8,073 nucleotides of DNA. Source: a virus. Its lineage: Duplodnaviria; Heunggongvirae; Uroviricota; Caudoviricetes. Location: IMG/VR virus record IMGVR_UViG_3300015185_000027, one strand, 5' to 3'. The position numbers and the translations under genes were made by a program. Of the stretch, positions 727 through 7,295 are shown piece by piece. The notes under the pieces are model-generated. The model saw only the letters and a list, made by a program, of their open reading frames with translations. It had not been told where the DNA came from and did no database searches. The first letter of the stretch is position 1. Each line of letters begins with the position of its first letter.

Positions 727-1067
727 CAGTTCACCACCTGCTCAATCGTACAACTGAAATCACTGTACCTGGCGTTATCTGTGACGCTCCACTCCCGGCA
801 TACCACCCTCACCGTCCGGTTATGTTTCGGCGGTCGCCACAAAAAGGCACGGTAACCACCATGCCACGATAAAAACTCTTCCAGCCATCGCCGGGTCGCC
901 TCATCCGTCACCCGGAACACCGCCTGAAACGTCTTCAGTCGGGCATTAAGTCCCGTCGGGCGGCGCTGTTCATAACCGTCACCAAACCGTACCCTCGCCA
1001 CCGACGGTTTCTCACTCACCTGCATCCCTTCACGCGGGACCAGATGCAGCGTTTTTATCTCAGCCAC
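726..1067 (-). CDS. M: Minor tail protein M (lambda gpM family), 113 aa, GTG start
   Basis: Contains the VRFGDGYEQR...GLNA.LKT motif and ends ...EQVVN, matching my recollection of lambda gpM. The start codon is GTG (plus-strand 'cac' at 1065..1067) preceded by GGAGGAA 8 nt upstream; it overlaps the tape measure 3' end by 8 nt. Confidence 0.85.
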   Translation of the reverse strand: MAEIKTLHLVPREGMQVSEKPSVARVRFGDGYEQRRPTGLNARLKTFQAVFRVTDEATRRWLEEFLSWHGGYRAFLWRPPKHNRTVRVVCREWSVTDNARYSDFSCTIEQVVN

Positions 1068-4000
1068 TCAGCATTCCTCCGTCACGTCGCATGGACAGCA
1101 TCACCGCCTGCACCCGCTGGTCAATCAGTTGCACAAGGCTGCCCGCAGCTTCCGGCCCTATCTGGCCATTAGTCCCGTCATTCTGAATGGCGATATGGTA
1201 GACCGGGGAATACACCAGACCTGCACTGCCGTTCATACTGCCCACCGCTCGCACACCCAGCGAGCCATCCGCCGCCCGGGTCAGGGGCATAATGGCTTCA
1301 GGACCGGCCTCCCCCATCAGTCCCGCCCCTTTTGCAAAGGCAAAGTACGTGGGCGTATCCACAATACTGTTGCTGTACGCACTCAGGTTTGCCGAGGTAT
1401 ACACCCCGCCTTTTGCATTGGCCACCGCACCGCCCAGCCAGCTACCAATACTGCCGATAAATCCTCCCGCTCCGGACATACTGTTTGCCGCCGTCTTGAT
1501 CCCGTTGACAATCGCGGCATTCATAAGAACTTTTGATATTTCCTGCAGCACTGATGAGGCCCAGCTGCGCCATTCCACTTTATTTCCGTTCAGCATCTCC
1601 GTGATGTTATTCACCATCCCTGAGATACCCTCCGTCGCCAGCTGTGCTGCCTGTGAGGCGTAATCGGACGCATTATCCACCCAGTTACTGAATCCCTCCT
1701 GCAGCCCTTTCTGCCAGTCCGCACGCTGCACATCCGATTCGGCATAAAAGGCTTCCTGCTCTTTCAGACGTTCACTCAGATACTGCGCGTTCTGTGCCAG
1801 AGCCTGTCTGTAAAAATCCTCACTGATATCCCCGGTCTGATACTGAGACTGAAGGTCCGCATCCTTCTGGCGGAAACTGTCGCGGATCTGCTGCAACTCC
1901 CGCATGCGTTCACGGAGCCGCTCTCCCTGCCCGTACCCCAGCAGTTCCGCTTCATTTGATGCACGCGCAGCCACATTATCATTCTTCAGGGTCTCTTCCC
2001 GGGACCGCAACTGCTCCCGGATTTTTTGCTGGTCAATCAGGGCCGCATTGCGCAGCAGTTCCTGCTTCTGCATCTCCGTCAGGGTTTTCAGTTCGCCCTG
2101 CGCAGTCTGGTATTTCAGCTTCGCCAGCTCTGTATTCTGCCCCGCAAGTGCCAATTGCTCTTTCTGCTGCTTCAGCAGCCGGGAAAAACTGTCTTCCGCT
2201 TTTTCCGTCTCTGATTTTCCACCCCGGGATTTGGGTTTATTCGCCTCGTTATTGCGCCAGGCTTCCAGGGCATTACTGATATAACGTTGTCTCGCCTCCT
2301 GATACGGTTCACCCACAAAACCGAGGTCATCCGCCGCATACCCCAGTCGGACACGCTCTTTTTCTTCCCCTTTCAGTCTGGACAGGGCCAGCTCACGCTC
2401 TGTTTTTGTCAGGGCACTCTGCTGTTTATCATCCAGAGTGGCCTGTGGCAGCCGTAACGGCACATTCACCAGTCCCTGCCGCTGCTGAAGCAGTTCATTA
2501 CCCAGCCCCAGCAGACGGTTGAATTCCGTATGCTGACCGTTCATAACCAGCATGGACTGGTACACCTTATTCTGCTCTGCCGCCTGCTGACGAATTAACG
2601 CCACACGACGGTCTTCCAGCCCGGCAAGCACATCCTGAATGGACTGCGCTTTTTCCTGCATCTGTGCCAGACGGGACTGCTCAACGGCAAGCTGCTCTGT
2701 TGCCTGAGAAAGCCCTTCCGTCACGGTCTTCACCGATGTCAGATGGTTTATCATGAATCCGTCACCGGTTGTCCAGCCAGGGTTAGCCAGAACATACTGA
2801 TATCCAGCGATTTTTTCCTGCAGGGATTTCACCCGGCTGGCCTGTTCATCAATCAGCCGGTTCTGCTCTGCCAGCGCCGCCCGTGTTCGTCCTTCATTAT
2901 CTGAGGCTTCAGGCAAAGACATTGACGGCGTTTTATGCGCGATTTCATCTATCGTCAGTGCATACTGGCGCGCTGACTCCCTGGCCTGCTCCTGATTCTG
3001 GTACAGCGTATACCATGCTGCTGCCCCCAGCATCACCAGTCCGGGTACGCCACCAACCAGTCCCAACGCACCAGTCATCAGACGTGAGCCCACCGCCGTT
3101 GTACTGTTCAGCGCATTCTGGGCTGCGGTTCTGGCAGCAATATTTCTGTTCAGGCGTTCCTGTGTGGCCGCCAGACGGGCTTCTGCAGCAATCTGCATCT
3201 CCGTCCCGCGGGCTGCCGCCACAGCCTGCTGTGCACGGTACACGGCTGCCCTTGCCCGCGCCGTGGCAATCTGCGTCCCCCTGAGCTGTGCTTCCGCCAG
3301 TGCCACTTCATTACGTGCTGCCGTCACAAGTCCTGCCGTGGCAGACACCGCTCCGGAGGCCATATTGCCAAAGTACCGGGCAACCCCGACGGCAACCAGC
3401 GCCCCCGCGGCTGTTGCCACATTATCAATATTACCGGCAACACCGTTCAGCACGCCGGAGAGCGTTTTCGTCGCTCCGCTGGCTTCATTCGCGCCACCCA
3501 CCCAGGCCATAAAGGCGTTTTCCACCTTTGTGATCCCGTCAGAGACCGTTTCCGGCATGGCGGCATATTCATCACGCAATACCCCCAGCTGGCTGATTAA
3601 CGCAGGAACGACTTTATCCGCCGTCAGTTTGCCGTCGTCCGCCATCGCCTTAAGGTCTTTACGGGCCACGCCCATACCCGCAGCCAGTGCACGTACGATC
3701 CGGTCTCCGCTTTCATTGACCGAATTAAATTCCTCACCGCGTAACACACCCTGTGCCAGCGCCTGGCTGAACTGGGTGATCACCGAGCCCGCCTCTGCCG
3801 TACTGGCACCGGAGATTTTCAGCCCCGTGGAAATGGCCTCCGTCACCTTCAGCACATCATCAGCACTGTAACCATATTCACGCATTGAGGCTGCCGAGCG
3901 GGCAAACAGGGCCGCATTATCTGAAAATGCCGTGCCCGTCCGCTGGCTGATATCCATCAGCACTTTCTGTGATGACGAAAATTCATCGGATGACTGCGAC

Positions 4001-4302
4001 GCCTGTTTCAGTCGGGCATTCACGGAACTCCATTCATCGGCCAGAGAAATCAGGTGTCCGGTGGCAAAGGCACCTGCAAATGCCCCCGCCGTTCCGGCAG
4101 CTGAAGCGCGGATTTCCGTCAACTGGCTGTTCAGCTCAGCCAGGGCGCGTCGCTGCTCCCGGGCGACTGCGGCAGCCTGACGCCCGCCATTCTGCAGGGT
4201 CCGGTAATATTCACTGCCCATGCGGGAAGCCCGCTGGATCTCCGACTGGAATGACTGCGAATTTGCCGAAATTTTGATAATCAGTTCACGTAACGTCGCC
4301 AT
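1060..4302 (-). CDS. H: Tail length tape measure protein (gpH-like), 1080 aa
   Basis: Very long ORF sitting between the G/G-T chaperone pair and M, as in lambda. Long Ala/Gln/Arg/Glu-rich stretches that look helical, a central Gly/Ala-rich hydrophobic segment (GALGLVGGVPGLVMLGAAAWYTLY, about 3003..3074) and a Gly-rich C-terminus, all typical of tape measure proteins. ATG at 4302..4300 preceded by GGAGAAAGGTGA. Confidence 0.9.
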   Translation of the reverse strand: MATLRELIIKISANSQSFQSEIQRASRMGSEYYRTLQNGGRQAAAVAREQRRALAELNSQLTEIRASAAGTAGAFAGAFATGHLISLADEWSSVNARLKQASQSSDEFSSSQKVLMDISQRTGTAFSDNAALFARSAASMREYGYSADDVLKVTEAISTGLKISGASTAEAGSVITQFSQALAQGVLRGEEFNSVNESGDRIVRALAAGMGVARKDLKAMADDGKLTADKVVPALISQLGVLRDEYAAMPETVSDGITKVENAFMAWVGGANEASGATKTLSGVLNGVAGNIDNVATAAGALVAVGVARYFGNMASGAVSATAGLVTAARNEVALAEAQLRGTQIATARARAAVYRAQQAVAAARGTEMQIAAEARLAATQERLNRNIAARTAAQNALNSTTAVGSRLMTGALGLVGGVPGLVMLGAAAWYTLYQNQEQARESARQYALTIDEIAHKTPSMSLPEASDNEGRTRAALAEQNRLIDEQASRVKSLQEKIAGYQYVLANPGWTTGDGFMINHLTSVKTVTEGLSQATEQLAVEQSRLAQMQEKAQSIQDVLAGLEDRRVALIRQQAAEQNKVYQSMLVMNGQHTEFNRLLGLGNELLQQRQGLVNVPLRLPQATLDDKQQSALTKTERELALSRLKGEEKERVRLGYAADDLGFVGEPYQEARQRYISNALEAWRNNEANKPKSRGGKSETEKAEDSFSRLLKQQKEQLALAGQNTELAKLKYQTAQGELKTLTEMQKQELLRNAALIDQQKIREQLRSREETLKNDNVAARASNEAELLGYGQGERLRERMRELQQIRDSFRQKDADLQSQYQTGDISEDFYRQALAQNAQYLSERLKEQEAFYAESDVQRADWQKGLQEGFSNWVDNASDYASQAAQLATEGISGMVNNITEMLNGNKVEWRSWASSVLQEISKVLMNAAIVNGIKTAANSMSGAGGFIGSIGSWLGGAVANAKGGVYTSANLSAYSNSIVDTPTYFAFAKGAGLMGEAGPEAIMPLTRAADGSLGVRAVGSMNGSAGLVYSPVYHIAIQNDGTNGQIGPEAAGSLVQLIDQRVQAVMLSMRRDGGMLSG

Positions 4303-4320
4303 TCACCTTTCTCCGGGCGT

Positions 4321-4341
4321 AAAAAAACCGCCTCAGCGGTT
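4321..4341 (-). terminator. Weak terminator-like hairpin plus U-run between the G-T stop and the tape measure start
   Basis: Minus strand reads GAACCGC-TGAG-GCGGTTTTTTT: a 4-6 bp GC stem, 4-nt loop, then a run of 7 T. It is followed directly by the tape measure ribosome-binding site. Short stem, so at most a partial terminator or attenuator. Confidence 0.3.
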
Positions 4342-4349
4342 CTCATCAT

Positions 4350-5029
4350 TCATGACTGTGCTGCAAAGCTCAGCGCGTCTTCCAGCGCCGCAAACGGATC
4401 CACCTCCGGCTTATCCTCATCCTCGCCCCAGCAGAGCATGGCGTCCTTCAGTGCAACATTCATCCCCTGTGCCCCAAAAACCGCTTTCACGATCTGTGCA
4501 TTACGGATATCCCCGCGCTCATCACCCAGCGGGGATACCCTGTCGAACTCCATCCACATCATCGCCTCGCTCACACTCAGGCTGTGCCGCAGTTCGGATA
4601 AGGTGCGCCCCAGACGGAGCGCAAGTCGCATCAGAAAGCGAATTTCCGGGCGGGCTACTTTTTTCTGGCCGACTCTGCATCAGCGATCAGTTCCAGTGCC
4701 TGACGCAGCAACCGGGCATGTACCGGACCATAGACGGCCAGCACCTGCTCACGGTCGTCCGGAGCGAACACCCGCTGCAGATCCGTATCACACAGGACAT
4801 CGCAGAACAGCGTCACATCCGCTTCCAGGTTACGGCGGGTTTTCGCCACCACCGACAGGGTATCGTCATCCTCTCCATCACCATTGAGCACTTCCTGCCA
4901 CAGATACCAGGCCTCTGCCGAAGGCTCCCGCAGCACCACGCTGACATTACCCCATTCCGGCACCTTCACCGTTTTATGACGAAACCCTGACAGTCTGGCC
5001 AGCGCCAGCGTTTTCAGATCCTTTTTCAT
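4350..5029 (-). CDS. Tail assembly chaperone G-T fusion made by programmed -1 frameshift (~226 aa); the T part has no start of its own
   Basis: The -1 frame is open from the slippery site through 4350: ...ARKK then VARPEIRFLMRLALRLGRTLSEL...FAAQS, stop TGA at 4350..4352. The overlapping G and T frames in this position match the conserved G/G-T arrangement of long-tailed phages. Confidence 0.65.
4655..5029 (-). CDS. Tail assembly chaperone G-like (zero-frame product), 124 aa
   Basis: Small acidic ORF immediately upstream of the tape measure and downstream of the major tail gene, ending ...ADAESARKK-TAG with a slippery heptamer at its last codons. I place the start at ATG 5029..5027 (MKKDLKTL...) with AAGGGG upstream; the ORF-track start at 5077 would overlap the major tail gene by 34 nt. 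Confidence 0.75.
   Translation of the reverse strand: MKKDLKTLALARLSGFRHKTVKVPEWGNVSVVLREPSAEAWYLWQEVLNGDGEDDDTLSVVAKTRRNLEADVTLFCDVLCDTDLQRVFAPDDREQVLAVYGPVHARLLRQALELIADAESARKK
4658..4664 (-). promoter_or_regulatory. Slippery heptamer A-AAA-AAG (-1 ribosomal frameshift site) followed directly by the zero-frame TAG stop
   Basis: Minus strand reads GCC AGA AAA AAG TAG; A_AAA_AAG is a canonical -1 slippery sequence (the same heptamer as in E. coli dnaX). A one-base backward slip continues into the T frame (GTA GCC CGC ...). Confidence 0.7.
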
Positions 5030-5043
5030 GATGACCCATCCCC

Positions 5044-5760
5044 TTATCCGGCGGCTGCGCTCACTGTCACGGTGCATTCAACAGACGTCACACTCTGTGC
5101 TTTCTCTGCCGAATCGGTCACCACGCAGGTATATTTCCCCGCATCAGCGGACTGCGCACCTGGCTTACTGAAGGTGTCTGTCGTCTGCCCGTCAACCGGC
5201 TGACCATCCTTCTTCCAGGCGTATTTATACGGCGGCGTTCCCCCGTTGGCACTGACTGACATTGTCAGCAGCGCACCTGTATTCACGGTAAGTGTTTTAT
5301 CCAGATTTTTCACAAACGCCAGCGGTACCACAAAGGACACCGGTTTGCCTTTCATACGCAGTGAAAACGTTGCTGCCACCACGCCGTTGGTACCGGATGA
5401 CCAGGTGTGCTGACGCACTTCCGCCAGGAACTTAAAGCCCTTACCGGACGGAAACAGCACCTTAAACGCATACAACGCGTCATTGTCATAGGCATCACGC
5501 AGGGCGTTCTGGGCCTGATTCAGATAAAAATTACCCGACATGGAAATCTCAGACGACGCCCCCAGACCGTTGATGTTCTCCTGCTCGGTGGAGCAGAGCG
5601 TGGTCACATCAATATCCTGTTTCTGACCGGCGGTGAACTGGACTTCCTTGATGGTGCAATCCAGGCGCAGATATTCCGCCTTATCCATAGTTTCAGCAGT
5701 CGCCGGGGCAGATGAAATCATCACCTGCGTCAGCTGTGAGCGTTCATACAAAGCAGACAT
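5044..5760 (-). CDS. Major tail protein (gpV-analogous) with a C-terminal Ig-like domain, 238 aa
   Basis: Sits immediately upstream of the G/G-T pair. ATG at 5760..5758 preceded by a strong AGGAGG site; the ORF-track N-terminal extension to 5895 would overlap the upstream gene and cross the intergenic hairpin, so I reject it. The C-terminal ~80 aa (..TPPYKYAWKKDGQPV...AGKYTCVVTD..) has the Ig-like signature known from lambda gpV and other tail tube proteins. Confidence 0.85.
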   Translation of the reverse strand: MSALYERSQLTQVMISSAPATAETMDKAEYLRLDCTIKEVQFTAGQKQDIDVTTLCSTEQENINGLGASSEISMSGNFYLNQAQNALRDAYDNDALYAFKVLFPSGKGFKFLAEVRQHTWSSGTNGVVAATFSLRMKGKPVSFVVPLAFVKNLDKTLTVNTGALLTMSVSANGGTPPYKYAWKKDGQPVDGQTTDTFSKPGAQSADAGKYTCVVTDSAEKAQSVTSVECTVTVSAAAG

Positions 5761-5776: not shown

Positions 5777-5798
5777 AAAAAACCCGCACGCGGCGGGG
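5777..5798 (-). terminator. Terminator-like GC hairpin plus U6 in the intergenic region upstream of the major tail gene
   Basis: Minus strand reads CCCGC-CGCGT-GCGGG-TTTTTT (5-bp GC stem, 5-nt loop, six T), placed 13 nt upstream of the AGGAGG of the major tail gene. Could equally be an RNA processing or stability element. Confidence 0.3.
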
Positions 5799-5824
5799 TA
5801 TGGTTTTGTAGAAAAAAGAAAAAG

Positions 5825-6169
5825 TCACACCGTGACCTGAAACTCCAGGGTTGCACGGTAACAGCGGTTTTCCGGAATATAGTCCTGCATTTCACTGACG
5901 GATCCCGGGGCCAGCAGCATTATGGCTTCACGGGCGTCCTGACGTATCTGACGCGCCTGCGTCACAGTCCCGGCATAAACGTCTATCTGCACCGACACTG
6001 AGGACTCCGCCTGCCCGCCCATCACGTCCGCTGACACCGATGAAATCAGGCTGAAAACCACCCACGGAAGCGCCACCGACGGCCTGCCATCCAGCAGGGG
6101 GACCACATACGGGTACACCTGCCCGCCGGCAAGATGCGCCAGATGAGGATACAAATCCGCCTCCGTCAT
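5825..6169 (-). CDS. Small tail-proximal structural protein, probable tail terminator or tail completion protein (DUF3168-like; position of lambda gpU), 114 aa
   Basis: ORF of 114 aa immediately upstream of the major tail gene; start ATG overlaps the upstream stop (ATGA). Family assignment is from position and motif recollection (..VYPYVVP...PWVVFSL..), not a search. Confidence 0.55.
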   Translation of the reverse strand: MTEADLYPHLAHLAGGQVYPYVVPLLDGRPSVALPWVVFSLISSVSADVMGGQAESSVSVQIDVYAGTVTQARQIRQDAREAIMLLAPGSVSEMQDYIPENRCYRATLEFQVTV

Positions 6170-6968: not shown

Positions 6969-7295
6969 TCATAACACCGTCGGACAACGCAAATCGTAAA
7001 TCAGCACGGAAACAGAAAACGGCAGCTCCCCCTGAAGCAGTTCTTCCCGCTCCGCAAGATCCGGATTCCGGTACAGCATCCCGGTCAGTCGCATGGCAGC
7101 CCCCTTCATCCGGGTTAATGCCTCGCCCGGGATCAGTTCACCGTCCTCACGGATCACTTTATCCCGGCTGCCCTGAATGTAGGCCAGCAGCACGGCGGTA
7201 GCCTGACAAACCTTGTCCATCAGCATGTCATCATCCGCGTCATGGTCGACACGCAGATGTGCCTTGATCTCTTCCAGTGTCAGTAATGCCGTCAT
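6969..7295 (-). CDS. gp6-like head-tail connector protein, 108 aa
   Basis: N-terminus MTALLTLEEIKAHLRVDHDADDDMLMDK... is the characteristic start of the HK97 gp6-like connector family as I recall it. ATG 7295..7293 preceded by AGGAGG and overlapping the upstream stop (ATGA). Confidence 0.75.
   Translation of the reverse strand: MTALLTLEEIKAHLRVDHDADDDMLMDKVCQATAVLLAYIQGSRDKVIREDGELIPGEALTRMKGAAMRLTGMLYRNPDLAEREELLQGELPFSVSVLIYDLRCPTVL

What the first reader, a model, noticed from the sequence alone, without database searches (positions are those of the whole stretch)
4350..5029. Programmed -1 frameshift site A-AAA-AAG placed directly before the G stop codon
The chaperone ORF ends AGA AAA AAG TAG. 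The heptamer A_AAA_AAG (4658..4664, minus strand) is a classic -1 slippery sequence, and a one-base slip reads straight into an overlapping 102-codon frame ending at 4350, giving the expected G/G-T pair of tail assembly chaperones. The stop codon immediately after the slip site may add ribosome pausing. Lambda uses G GGA AAG at the equivalent place, so this is a different heptamer solving the same problem.
Basis: partly seen in the sequence, partly recalled or inferred. Interest (0 to 1): 0.5.

Follow-up and report, generated by a model that had tools for sequence, protein, structure and literature searches.

The report
Known prophage tail-chaperone G/GT frameshift site
This is a real programmed -1 ribosomal frameshift site in the tail-assembly chaperone gene of a very common E. 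coli prophage, but it is already published and this exact sequence was measured at about 7% frameshifting in a reporter, so it is ordinary apart from being left out of database annotation.

Summary
On the minus strand a 124-codon Phage_TAC_1 gene (5029..4655) ends AGA AAA AAG TAG. A -1 slip on A_AAA_AAG (4664..4658) opens a 102-codon frame ending at 4350 that carries a Phage_tail_T domain. The G/G-T interpretation is supported. The pair lies between the major tail gene and the tape-measure gene. T has no Shine-Dalgarno sequence of its own. The nine "intergenic" codons upstream of the annotated T start evolve like coding sequence in the -1 frame. T is in the -1 frame of G in 49 of 51 distinct homologous loci, and HK97-like and Burkholderia KS9 homologues carry an annotated frameshift at the aligned Lys codon.

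It is not new. Sharma et al. 2014 list this gene family (ECs1801, cluster A_AAA_AAG_25: motif at residue 124, products of 124 and 226 aa) as a true -1 frameshift. Antonov et al. 2013 cloned a 75-nt cassette identical to window 4684..4610 and measured 7% +/- 0.79 frameshifting.

Two things remain open: databases annotate T as a separate 93-aa gene, and nobody has tested whether the abutting stop codon stimulates the shift. My survey shows the stop directly abuts the slip site in 26 of 48 informative loci, including all 12 that lack a full heptamer.

The parts
4655..5029 (-). Gene G: tail assembly chaperone, 124 aa plus a TAG stop. This is the product of normal translation.
   Evidence: ORF. Pfam PF06222 Phage_TAC_1, E = 1.7e-61 over the full length. 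Own Shine-Dalgarno AAGGGGA, duplex dG -8.4 kcal/mol. Annotated as 'phage tail assembly chaperone' in RefSeq.
4658..4664 (-). Slippery heptamer A_AAA_AAG, formed by the last base of the Arg122 codon and the two final Lys codons of G.
   Evidence: Kept in 82 of 82 close relatives and in 17 further distinct diverged loci. Listed as cluster A_AAA_AAG_25 in Sharma et al. 2014.
4655..4657 (-). 0-frame TAG stop directly abutting the heptamer. It is a candidate 'shifty stop' stimulator; this role is inferred and not shown.
   Evidence: The stop is adjacent in 14 of 17 distinct A_AAA_AAG loci and in 12 of 12 intact loci that have only NNA_AAG.
4350..4658 (-). -1 frame T segment: 102 sense codons (VARPEIRFLM...AAQS) plus TGA. 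It is translated only as the C-terminal half of the 226-aa G-T fusion.
   Evidence: PF06223 Phage_tail_T, E = 1.5e-18. In the -1 frame in 49 of 51 distinct homologous loci. The linker codons show third-position variation in this frame.
4680..4682 (-). TGA in the -1 frame. It closes that frame upstream and confines any productive shift to 4679..4655.
   Evidence: overlap of 22 nt.
4629..4631 (-). ATG that databases use as the start of a stand-alone 93-aa 'tail assembly protein T'. It is most likely an internal Met codon of G-T.
   Evidence: Annotated as the T start. SD duplex dG is -3.5 kcal/mol, equal to the median of all 200 ATG triplets on this strand, against -6.6 to -12.8 for the nine real starts. 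The Met is absent in Rahnella L132 and Burkholderia phage KS9.
5044..5760 (-). Major tail subunit gene with a C-terminal Ig-like domain, the upstream neighbour that defines the G/GT position.
1060..4302 (-). Tape measure protein gene (1080 aa), the downstream neighbour that defines the G/GT position.
   Evidence: (PF06120, PF20155, PF09718).

Best explanation
The region is the G/G-T tail assembly chaperone pair of an HK97-like, lambda-type siphovirus tail module in a common E. coli prophage (the type found in Stx phages 2851 and YYZ-2008 and in Sakai Sp9).

Most ribosomes translate G (124 aa) and terminate at TAG 4657..4655. A minority, about 7% in a reporter, slip one base backwards on A_AAA_AAG (4664..4658). 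E. coli's single tRNA-Lys (anticodon UUU) pairs weakly with AAG and re-pairs with AAA. These ribosomes then read GTA GCC CGC... in the -1 frame and make a 226-aa G-T fusion (...ESARKK-VARPEIRFLM...) ending at 4350.

By analogy with lambda gpG and gpGT, G and the G part of G-T coat the tape measure protein, while the T part recruits the major tail subunit. The fixed low G-T:G ratio is set by the slip frequency.

What is shown: the sequence anatomy, the domain identities, the family-wide conservation, and fusion synthesis from this exact cassette in E. coli. What is inferred: the role in tail assembly, and whether the shift is a tandem P/A-site slip or a P-site slip with the stop codon waiting in the A site.
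For: - Anatomy.
- Domains: PF06222 on G and PF06223 on the -1 frame.
- Position: the pair lies between the major tail gene and the tape measure gene.
- Published experiment: the 75-nt insert of Antonov et al. 2013 (Phage_TAC cluster, fs-gene 15618692; 7% +/- 0.79) is 100% identical to window 4684..4610.
- Published catalogue: Sharma et al. 2014 list ECs1801, 'tail assembly chaperone [true]', cluster A_AAA_AAG_25, with the motif at residue 124 and products of 124 and 226 aa. ECs_1801 is 97% identical in DNA to the window's G-T and identical across the slip region.
- Annotated homologues: HK446, HK544 and KS9 carry annotated programmed frameshifts, and their slip sites fall on the aligned Lys codon.
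- Survey: T is in the -1 frame in 49 of 51 distinct loci, always with an A_AAN slip codon inside the open overlap.
- No independent start: the ATG at 4631 has no Shine-Dalgarno sequence.
- Coding linker: the codons upstream of that ATG show coding periodicity in the -1 frame, with entropy 0.65/0.69/1.26 at codon positions 1/2/3.
- Function: the lambda G/GT mechanism is summarised in Atkins et al. 2016.
Against: - No direct evidence comes from an induced prophage or from virions. The 7% figure comes from a GST-MBP reporter carrying about 138 nt of context.
- No conserved stimulatory RNA structure or upstream SD-like element was found. The bare heptamer gave only 0.29% in a different assay, so what raises the rate is unexplained.
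- Every database record I looked at for this prophage type annotates T as a separate gene.
- The Met at 4631 is conserved in most homologues, so some independent initiation cannot be excluded.
Confidence: 0.93

Rival explanations
1. T is a separate protein translated from its own start at ATG 4631, as all database records for this prophage annotate it, perhaps by re-initiation after termination at the G stop 24 nt upstream. On this view the heptamer is incidental.
For: - Annotated this way in RefSeq and GenBank.
- The Met is conserved in most homologues.
- In the Klebsiella clade a -1 frame ATG lies 5 nt after the G stop and is annotated as the T start.
- Antonov et al. note that frameshifting and coupling can coexist in some clusters.
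Against: - ATG 4631 has SD pairing no better than a random ATG: -3.5 kcal/mol, the median of 200.
- The nine codons upstream of it are conserved as protein, with third-position wobble in the -1 frame.
- Rahnella L132 and phage KS9 have no Met at that position.
- T keeps the -1 frame relative to G in 49 of 51 loci, which an independent gene would not need to do.
- The fusion product was observed at 7% from this sequence.
- Phage_TAC is not among the clusters reported to show internal initiation.
Confidence: 0.05
2. The frame change is made by RNA polymerase (transcriptional slippage adding one A in the A run), not by the ribosome. The resulting mRNA would encode the same ...RKKVARP... fusion.
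For: - An extra A in the A6 run gives exactly the same protein, so neither protein data nor the published reporter can tell the two apart.
- Several homologues have longer runs of 8 A (L086, L099-L104), where polymerase slippage becomes plausible.
- Poly-A runs are known slippage sites.
Against: - The run here is only 6 A. The literature quoted implicates runs longer than 7 A.
- The sister cassette with G_GGA_AAG (only 3 A) gave 6%, about the same as this one.
- Many homologues use G_GGA_AAG, G_GAA_AAG or NNA_AAG, which polymerase slippage cannot explain.
Confidence: 0.02

Closest known systems
E. coli O157:H7 Sakai prophage Sp9 gene ECs1801 (Sharma et al. 2014, cluster A_AAA_AAG_25; Antonov et al. 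2013, GeneTack Phage_TAC cluster)
   Same: It is the same gene. G-T DNA is 97% identical and the slip region is identical. Products are 124 and 226 aa with the motif at residue 124. The tested 75-nt cassette is identical to the window.
   Different: Nothing relevant differs. There are 18 substitutions over 680 nt, all outside the slip site.
Phage HK97 gp13/gp14 and its relatives HK446 and HK544 (annotated programmed frameshift)
   Same: G is homologous (63% aa identity) and so is the T domain. The gene order is the same and the slip falls on the aligned Lys AAG codon.
   Different: - HK97-type sites read G_GAA_AAG in the 0 frame (GGGAAAAG), with the G stop 15 nt downstream.
- They carry an extra small gene (gp15) before the tape measure gene.
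- The window has the full A_AAA_AAG heptamer with the stop abutting it.
Phage lambda G/GT (Levin et al. 1993; Xu et al. 2004, 2013, 2014)
   Same: - Same position between the major tail and tape measure genes.
- A -1 shift near the end of G gives a low-abundance G-T fusion.
- The T domain belongs to the same Pfam family, PF06223.
   Different: - Lambda G belongs to another chaperone Pfam family, not PF06222 (my own knowledge).
- Lambda's heptamer is G_GGA_AAG, about 6 codons before the stop (motif at 135 of 141).
- Lambda's rate is about 3-4% (a 30:1 ratio), against 7% in the reporter here.
E. coli dnaX and IS911/IS3-family A_AAA_AAG frameshift sites
   Same: They use the identical heptamer and rely on the same property of tRNA-Lys(UUU) on AAG.
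   Different: Those sites have defined stimulators: an upstream SD-like sequence and a downstream hairpin or pseudoknot at a 5-9 nt spacing. They reach 40-50%. Here no SD-like element or conserved structure was found and the rate is about 7%.

Membership tests
Tailed-phage G/GT tail assembly chaperone pair with a conserved -1 frameshift (Xu, Hendrix and Duda 2004) | Two overlapping ORFs located between the major tail subunit gene and the tape measure gene | tested here: met
   Major tail gene 5760..5044, G 5029..4655, T frame 4658..4350, tape measure gene 4302..1060.
Tailed-phage G/GT tail assembly chaperone pair with a conserved -1 frameshift (Xu, Hendrix and Duda 2004) | A slippery sequence in the 0 frame inside the short window where both frames are open | tested here: met
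   A_AAA_AAG at 4664..4658 lies inside the 22-nt open overlap 4679..4658.
Tailed-phage G/GT tail assembly chaperone pair with a conserved -1 frameshift (Xu, Hendrix and Duda 2004) | The downstream ORF lacks its own translation start signals | tested here: met
   ATG 4631 has SD dG -3.5 kcal/mol, the median of random ATGs; the other nine genes have -6.6 to -12.8. The Met is missing in L132 and KS9.
Tailed-phage G/GT tail assembly chaperone pair with a conserved -1 frameshift (Xu, Hendrix and Duda 2004) | The frame relationship and slip position are conserved among diverged homologues | tested here: met
   49 of 51 distinct loci have T in the -1 frame with an A_AAN slip codon at the aligned position. 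The two exceptions are a record cut at its end and a copy with an indel.
Tailed-phage G/GT tail assembly chaperone pair with a conserved -1 frameshift (Xu, Hendrix and Duda 2004) | The fusion protein is actually made by frameshifting | not testable with these tools
   Published reporter data on the identical 75-nt sequence give 7% +/- 0.79 (Antonov et al. 2013, Suppl. Table S2). There are no data from phage-infected or induced cells.
Tailed-phage G/GT tail assembly chaperone pair with a conserved -1 frameshift (Xu, Hendrix and Duda 2004) | G-T is required, at the right ratio to G, for tail assembly | not testable with these tools
   Known for lambda only (review).
Pfam PF06222 Phage_TAC_1 / PF06223 Phage_tail_T | Score above the curated gathering threshold | tested here: met
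   G scores 206 bits against a cutoff of 25. The -1 frame scores 67.4 bits against a cutoff of 25.9.
Stimulated A_AAA_AAG frameshift sites of the dnaX / IS911 type | SD-like sequence 6-17 nt upstream of the heptamer | tested here: not met
   The upstream sequence GCAGAGTCGGCC has no run of 4 or more nt matching the SD. The SD column for this cluster is empty in Sharma Table S8.
Stimulated A_AAA_AAG frameshift sites of the dnaX / IS911 type | Conserved hairpin or pseudoknot starting 5-9 nt downstream | tested here: inconclusive
   - Folding z-scores are -0.42 for 141 nt and -1.79 for 75 nt.
- The alifold of 14 diverged loci places the first pair 31 nt downstream, with a covariation term of about 0.
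- Sharma et al. report a 130-nt 'HP' at a 5-nt spacing, but with ddG 0.020 +/- 0.023, no better than the average.

The most novel reading that the evidence does not exclude
The 0-frame stop codon that directly abuts the slip site may be a selected stimulator (a 'shifty stop') across the HK97-like Phage_TAC_1 family. With the stop waiting in the A site, peptidyl-tRNA-Lys on AAG could slip to AAA by itself. That would explain three things: 12 intact lineages have lost the P-site half of the heptamer but always keep NNA_AAG followed directly by TAA; 14 of 17 A_AAA_AAG loci also abut a stop; and the native cassette gives 7% although the bare heptamer gave 0.29% in another assay. As far as I could find, this has not been described for this family.
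Probability: 0.35. Interest if true: 0.3.

Novelty: already known. Interest (0 to 1): 0.12.

Why it matters
As a discovery it matters little. The G/GT frameshift is textbook phage biology, and this exact site has been catalogued and measured.

Its practical value is for annotation. This prophage module occurs in 1246 of 5426 complete E. coli genomes and in 92 phage records. Every record of this type that I inspected splits G-T into a chaperone and a free-standing 93-aa (or shorter) 'protein T' that probably does not exist as such.

A small open mechanistic question remains: what raises the slip rate from the sub-percent level of the bare heptamer to about 7%, and does the abutting stop codon do it?

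Tried and rejected
- **Heptamer count in the window:** not significant on its own (2 found, 0.77 expected).
- **Downstream stimulatory RNA structure:** three approaches found nothing convincing.
  - The MFE of 141 nt is no better than shuffles (z = -0.42).
  - The 75 nt from the heptamer onward fold only weakly better than shuffles (z = -1.79).
  - The consensus fold of 14 diverged A_AAA_AAG+stop loci has no pairs within 30 nt of the site and a covariation term of about 0.
- **The 8-bp hairpin at 4623..4604:** it encodes the conserved ALRLGR peptide and is broken in L121 while the peptide is kept, so I read it as a by-product of protein conservation.
- **Upstream SD-like element:** none in the window. 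Some homologues have GAGG or GGAG 8-12 nt upstream, but this stretch encodes an acidic tail rich in GAG and GAA codons.
- **Locus search with the 9-sequence alignment:** failed for lack of conserved blocks. It worked after I dropped the Burkholderia sequences.
- **First viral-contig scan:** returned only relatives at 98% identity or more, which are uninformative for conservation.
- **Xu et al. 2004:** not held in the library, so statements about that paper rest on citations in other papers and on my own knowledge.
- **Terminator consensus scan of 4200..5200:** found nothing, although folding shows a typical hairpin plus U-tract after T.

Full report
[quoted passage not shown].

- The ORF starting at ATG 5029 encodes 124 aa ending ESARKK, with its TAG stop at 4657..4655.
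- A_AAA_AAG occupies 4664..4658 in the X_XXY_YYZ register.
- From GTA (4658) the -1 frame is open for 102 codons (VARPEIRFLMRLALRLGRTL...) to TGA 4352..4350.
- That frame is closed upstream by TGA 4682..4680, so only a 22-nt window allows a productive shift.

The heptamer alone is not improbable: 2 copies in the window against 0.77 expected. What matters is its context.

**Identity of the genes.** G matches Pfam Phage_TAC_1 end to end (E = 1.7e-61), and the -1 frame matches Phage_tail_T (E = 1.5e-18). The upstream neighbour is a tail tube protein with an Ig-like C-terminus. The downstream neighbour is a 1080-aa tape measure protein.

The window is a widespread E. coli prophage tail module:

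- It is 100% identical to E. coli NCCP15648.
- It is present in 1246 of 5426 complete E. coli genomes, often in several copies.
- It is present in 92 phage records, mostly Stx-converting phages such as 2851 and YYZ-2008.

In the records of this type that I opened, G and a 93-aa 'tail assembly protein T' starting at ATG 4631 are annotated separately, with no slippage. In Sakai the second ORF is annotated even shorter.

**Comparative evidence.** Homologues at 63% protein identity in the HK97-like phages HK446 and HK544 carry a two-piece CDS labelled as a programmed frameshift, and so does Burkholderia phage KS9. In the protein alignment the slip codon of these phages is the Lys AAG that aligns with the last codon of the window's G.

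I collected 44 further loci from one-genome-per-species contigs and 9 phage loci. After removing duplicates there are 51 distinct loci.

- T lies in the -1 frame of G in 49 of them.
- The two exceptions are a record cut at its end and a Leclercia copy with an indel in G.
- A further copy, in a Symbiopectobacterium endosymbiont, is degraded, which leaves 48 informative loci.

| Slip site at the aligned position | Distinct loci | Distance from slip site to the G stop |
|---|---|---|
| A_AAA_AAG | 14 | 0 nt (this class includes the window and spans Pectobacterium, Brenneria, Serratia, Symbiopectobacterium, Enterobacter, Kosakonia, Phytobacter and Rahnella) |
| A_AAA_AAG | 3 | 24-30 nt |
| A_AAA_AAA | 1 | 33 nt |
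| G_GGA_AAG | 6 | 3 nt |
| G_GGA_AAC | 2 | 3 nt |
| G_GAA_AAG (HK97 type) | 10 | 3 or 15 nt |
| NNA_AAG only (no full heptamer) | 12 | 0 nt (TAA) |

**Is T made on its own?** Four observations argue against it.

- The ATG at 4631 pairs with the anti-SD at only -3.5 kcal/mol, exactly the median of all 200 ATG triplets on this strand. The nine real gene starts in the window score -6.6 to -12.8.
- The nine codons between the G stop and that ATG, annotated as intergenic, are conserved as protein (V-x-x-P-x-x-x-F-L-M). Their variability is concentrated at the third codon position of the -1 frame, with entropy 0.65/0.69/1.26.
- Rahnella (FLF) and phage KS9 (LELT) lack the Met altogether.
- All 82 close relatives keep AGAAAAAAGTAG, although they are too similar for this to carry weight.

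**Prior publication.** Two papers already cover this site.

*Sharma et al. 2014* (NAR 42:7210, PMC4066793). The supplementary tables list a prophage cluster A_AAA_AAG_25, represented by ECs1801, 'tail assembly chaperone; [true]'. It has 53 genes, the motif at residue 124, a normal product of 124 aa and a frameshift product of 226 aa. These are exactly the numbers found here. I fetched ECs_1801 from the Sakai Sp9 prophage. Its G-T region is 97% identical to the window and identical across the slip region.

*Antonov et al. 2013* (NAR 41:6514, PMC3711429). They tested two cassettes of the corresponding GeneTack cluster (Phage_TAC) in a GST-MBP reporter in E. coli.

[quoted passage not shown] It matches window 4684..4610 with no mismatch.
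- The second insert, G_GGA_AAG_CCG_TAA (the mEp390 type), gave 6%.
- Phage_TAC is not among the clusters for which they report internal initiation.

**Mechanism.** The best-supported account is standard -1 programmed ribosomal frameshifting, driven by tRNA-Lys(UUU) re-pairing from AAG to AAA. It yields a minor G-T fusion whose T domain, by analogy with lambda, links the tape-measure/G complex to the major tail subunit (review).

What stimulates the shift is not settled.

- In Sharma's lacZ assay the bare heptamer gives 0.291%. It gives 4.26% with the IS911 stimulators and 39% with the IS3 pseudoknot.
- The native cassette gave 7%, measured in a different assay.
- I found no SD-like element, and no structure that is either unusually stable or conserved with covariation. 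Sharma's own measure for this cluster is null, with ddG 0.020 +/- 0.023.
- The abutting stop is the obvious candidate. It is adjacent in 26 of the 48 informative loci and in every intact locus without a full heptamer. This fits the old 'shifty stop' idea, in which the peptidyl-tRNA slips while the A site waits for a release factor.
- Because these loci are related by descent, the counts are not independent events. The idea remains an inference.

**Rivals.**

- *Independent initiation of T.* This is contradicted by the points above but cannot be excluded as a minor route.
- *Transcriptional slippage.* It would give the same protein, but it is unlikely with only six A residues. It also cannot explain the G_GGA_AAG and NNA_AAG homologues, or the equal efficiency of the G_GGA_AAG cassette.

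**Verdict.** The residual value is a systematic annotation error in a very common prophage and the small open question about the adjacent stop codon.

Noticed in passing
window 4322..4344 (minus strand): Terminator-like hairpin GAGAACCGC-UGAG-GCGGUUUUUUU in the 47-nt gap between the T stop (4350) and the tape measure start (4302). The consensus scan missed it, but folding shows a 9-bp stem followed by a U-tract. HK446 has annotated rho-independent terminators at comparable positions in its tail operon.
   Followed up: partly
window 5783..5797 and 5822..5838 (minus strand): Two terminator-like hairpins with T-runs just upstream of the major tail gene's Shine-Dalgarno sequence (CCCGCCGCGTGCGGG TTTTTTATTA). 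The position is equivalent to the terminator annotated in HK446 between gp11 and the major tail gene.
   Followed up: no
L003 1561..1569; also L093-L097, L107, L088, L112, L114: HK97-type homologues carry GGGAAAAG or GGAAAAG read as G_GAA_AAG in the 0 frame, not in lambda's G_GGA_AAG register. The P-site tRNA-Glu would mispair at the middle position after the slip, so these sites may work mainly through the A_AAG half.
   Followed up: partly
L089, L098, L108, L110, L113, L116-L119, L128, L129, L133: Twelve distinct loci (Klebsiella, Raoultella, Pantoea, Erwinia, Kalamiella, Phytobacter, Silvania) have no slippery heptamer at all. They have only NNA_AAG followed directly by TAA, with T still in the -1 frame. 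In the Klebsiella clade a -1 frame ATG lies 5 nt after the stop, so re-initiation is an alternative there.
   Followed up: partly
L137 20472..20681 (E. coli Sakai ECs_1802); window 4350..4631: Database annotation of T is inconsistent. It is a 93-aa ORF from ATG 4631 in RefSeq PGAP and phage records, and only a 210-nt ORF in Sakai. None of the records of this prophage type that I opened shows the G-T fusion.
   Followed up: yes
window 5044..5760 (minus strand): The major tail subunit carries a C-terminal immunoglobulin-like domain (Ig_3, Ig_2 and I-set hits at residues ~150-227) fused in frame to the tail tube domain.
   Followed up: no
window 7292..7996 (minus strand): The C-terminal part of the ORF that RefSeq calls the portal protein contains a 25-aa direct repeat, KEAVSHI[P/H]VPRDGRDYDPDVLQKAV, present twice about 55 residues apart.
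   Followed up: no
L109 (Leclercia NCTC13032) and L122 (Ca. Symbiopectobacterium endolongispinus): Two homologous loci look damaged. L109 has an indel that truncates G and puts T in the same frame as G. L122 is a degraded copy in an insect endosymbiont.
   Followed up: no
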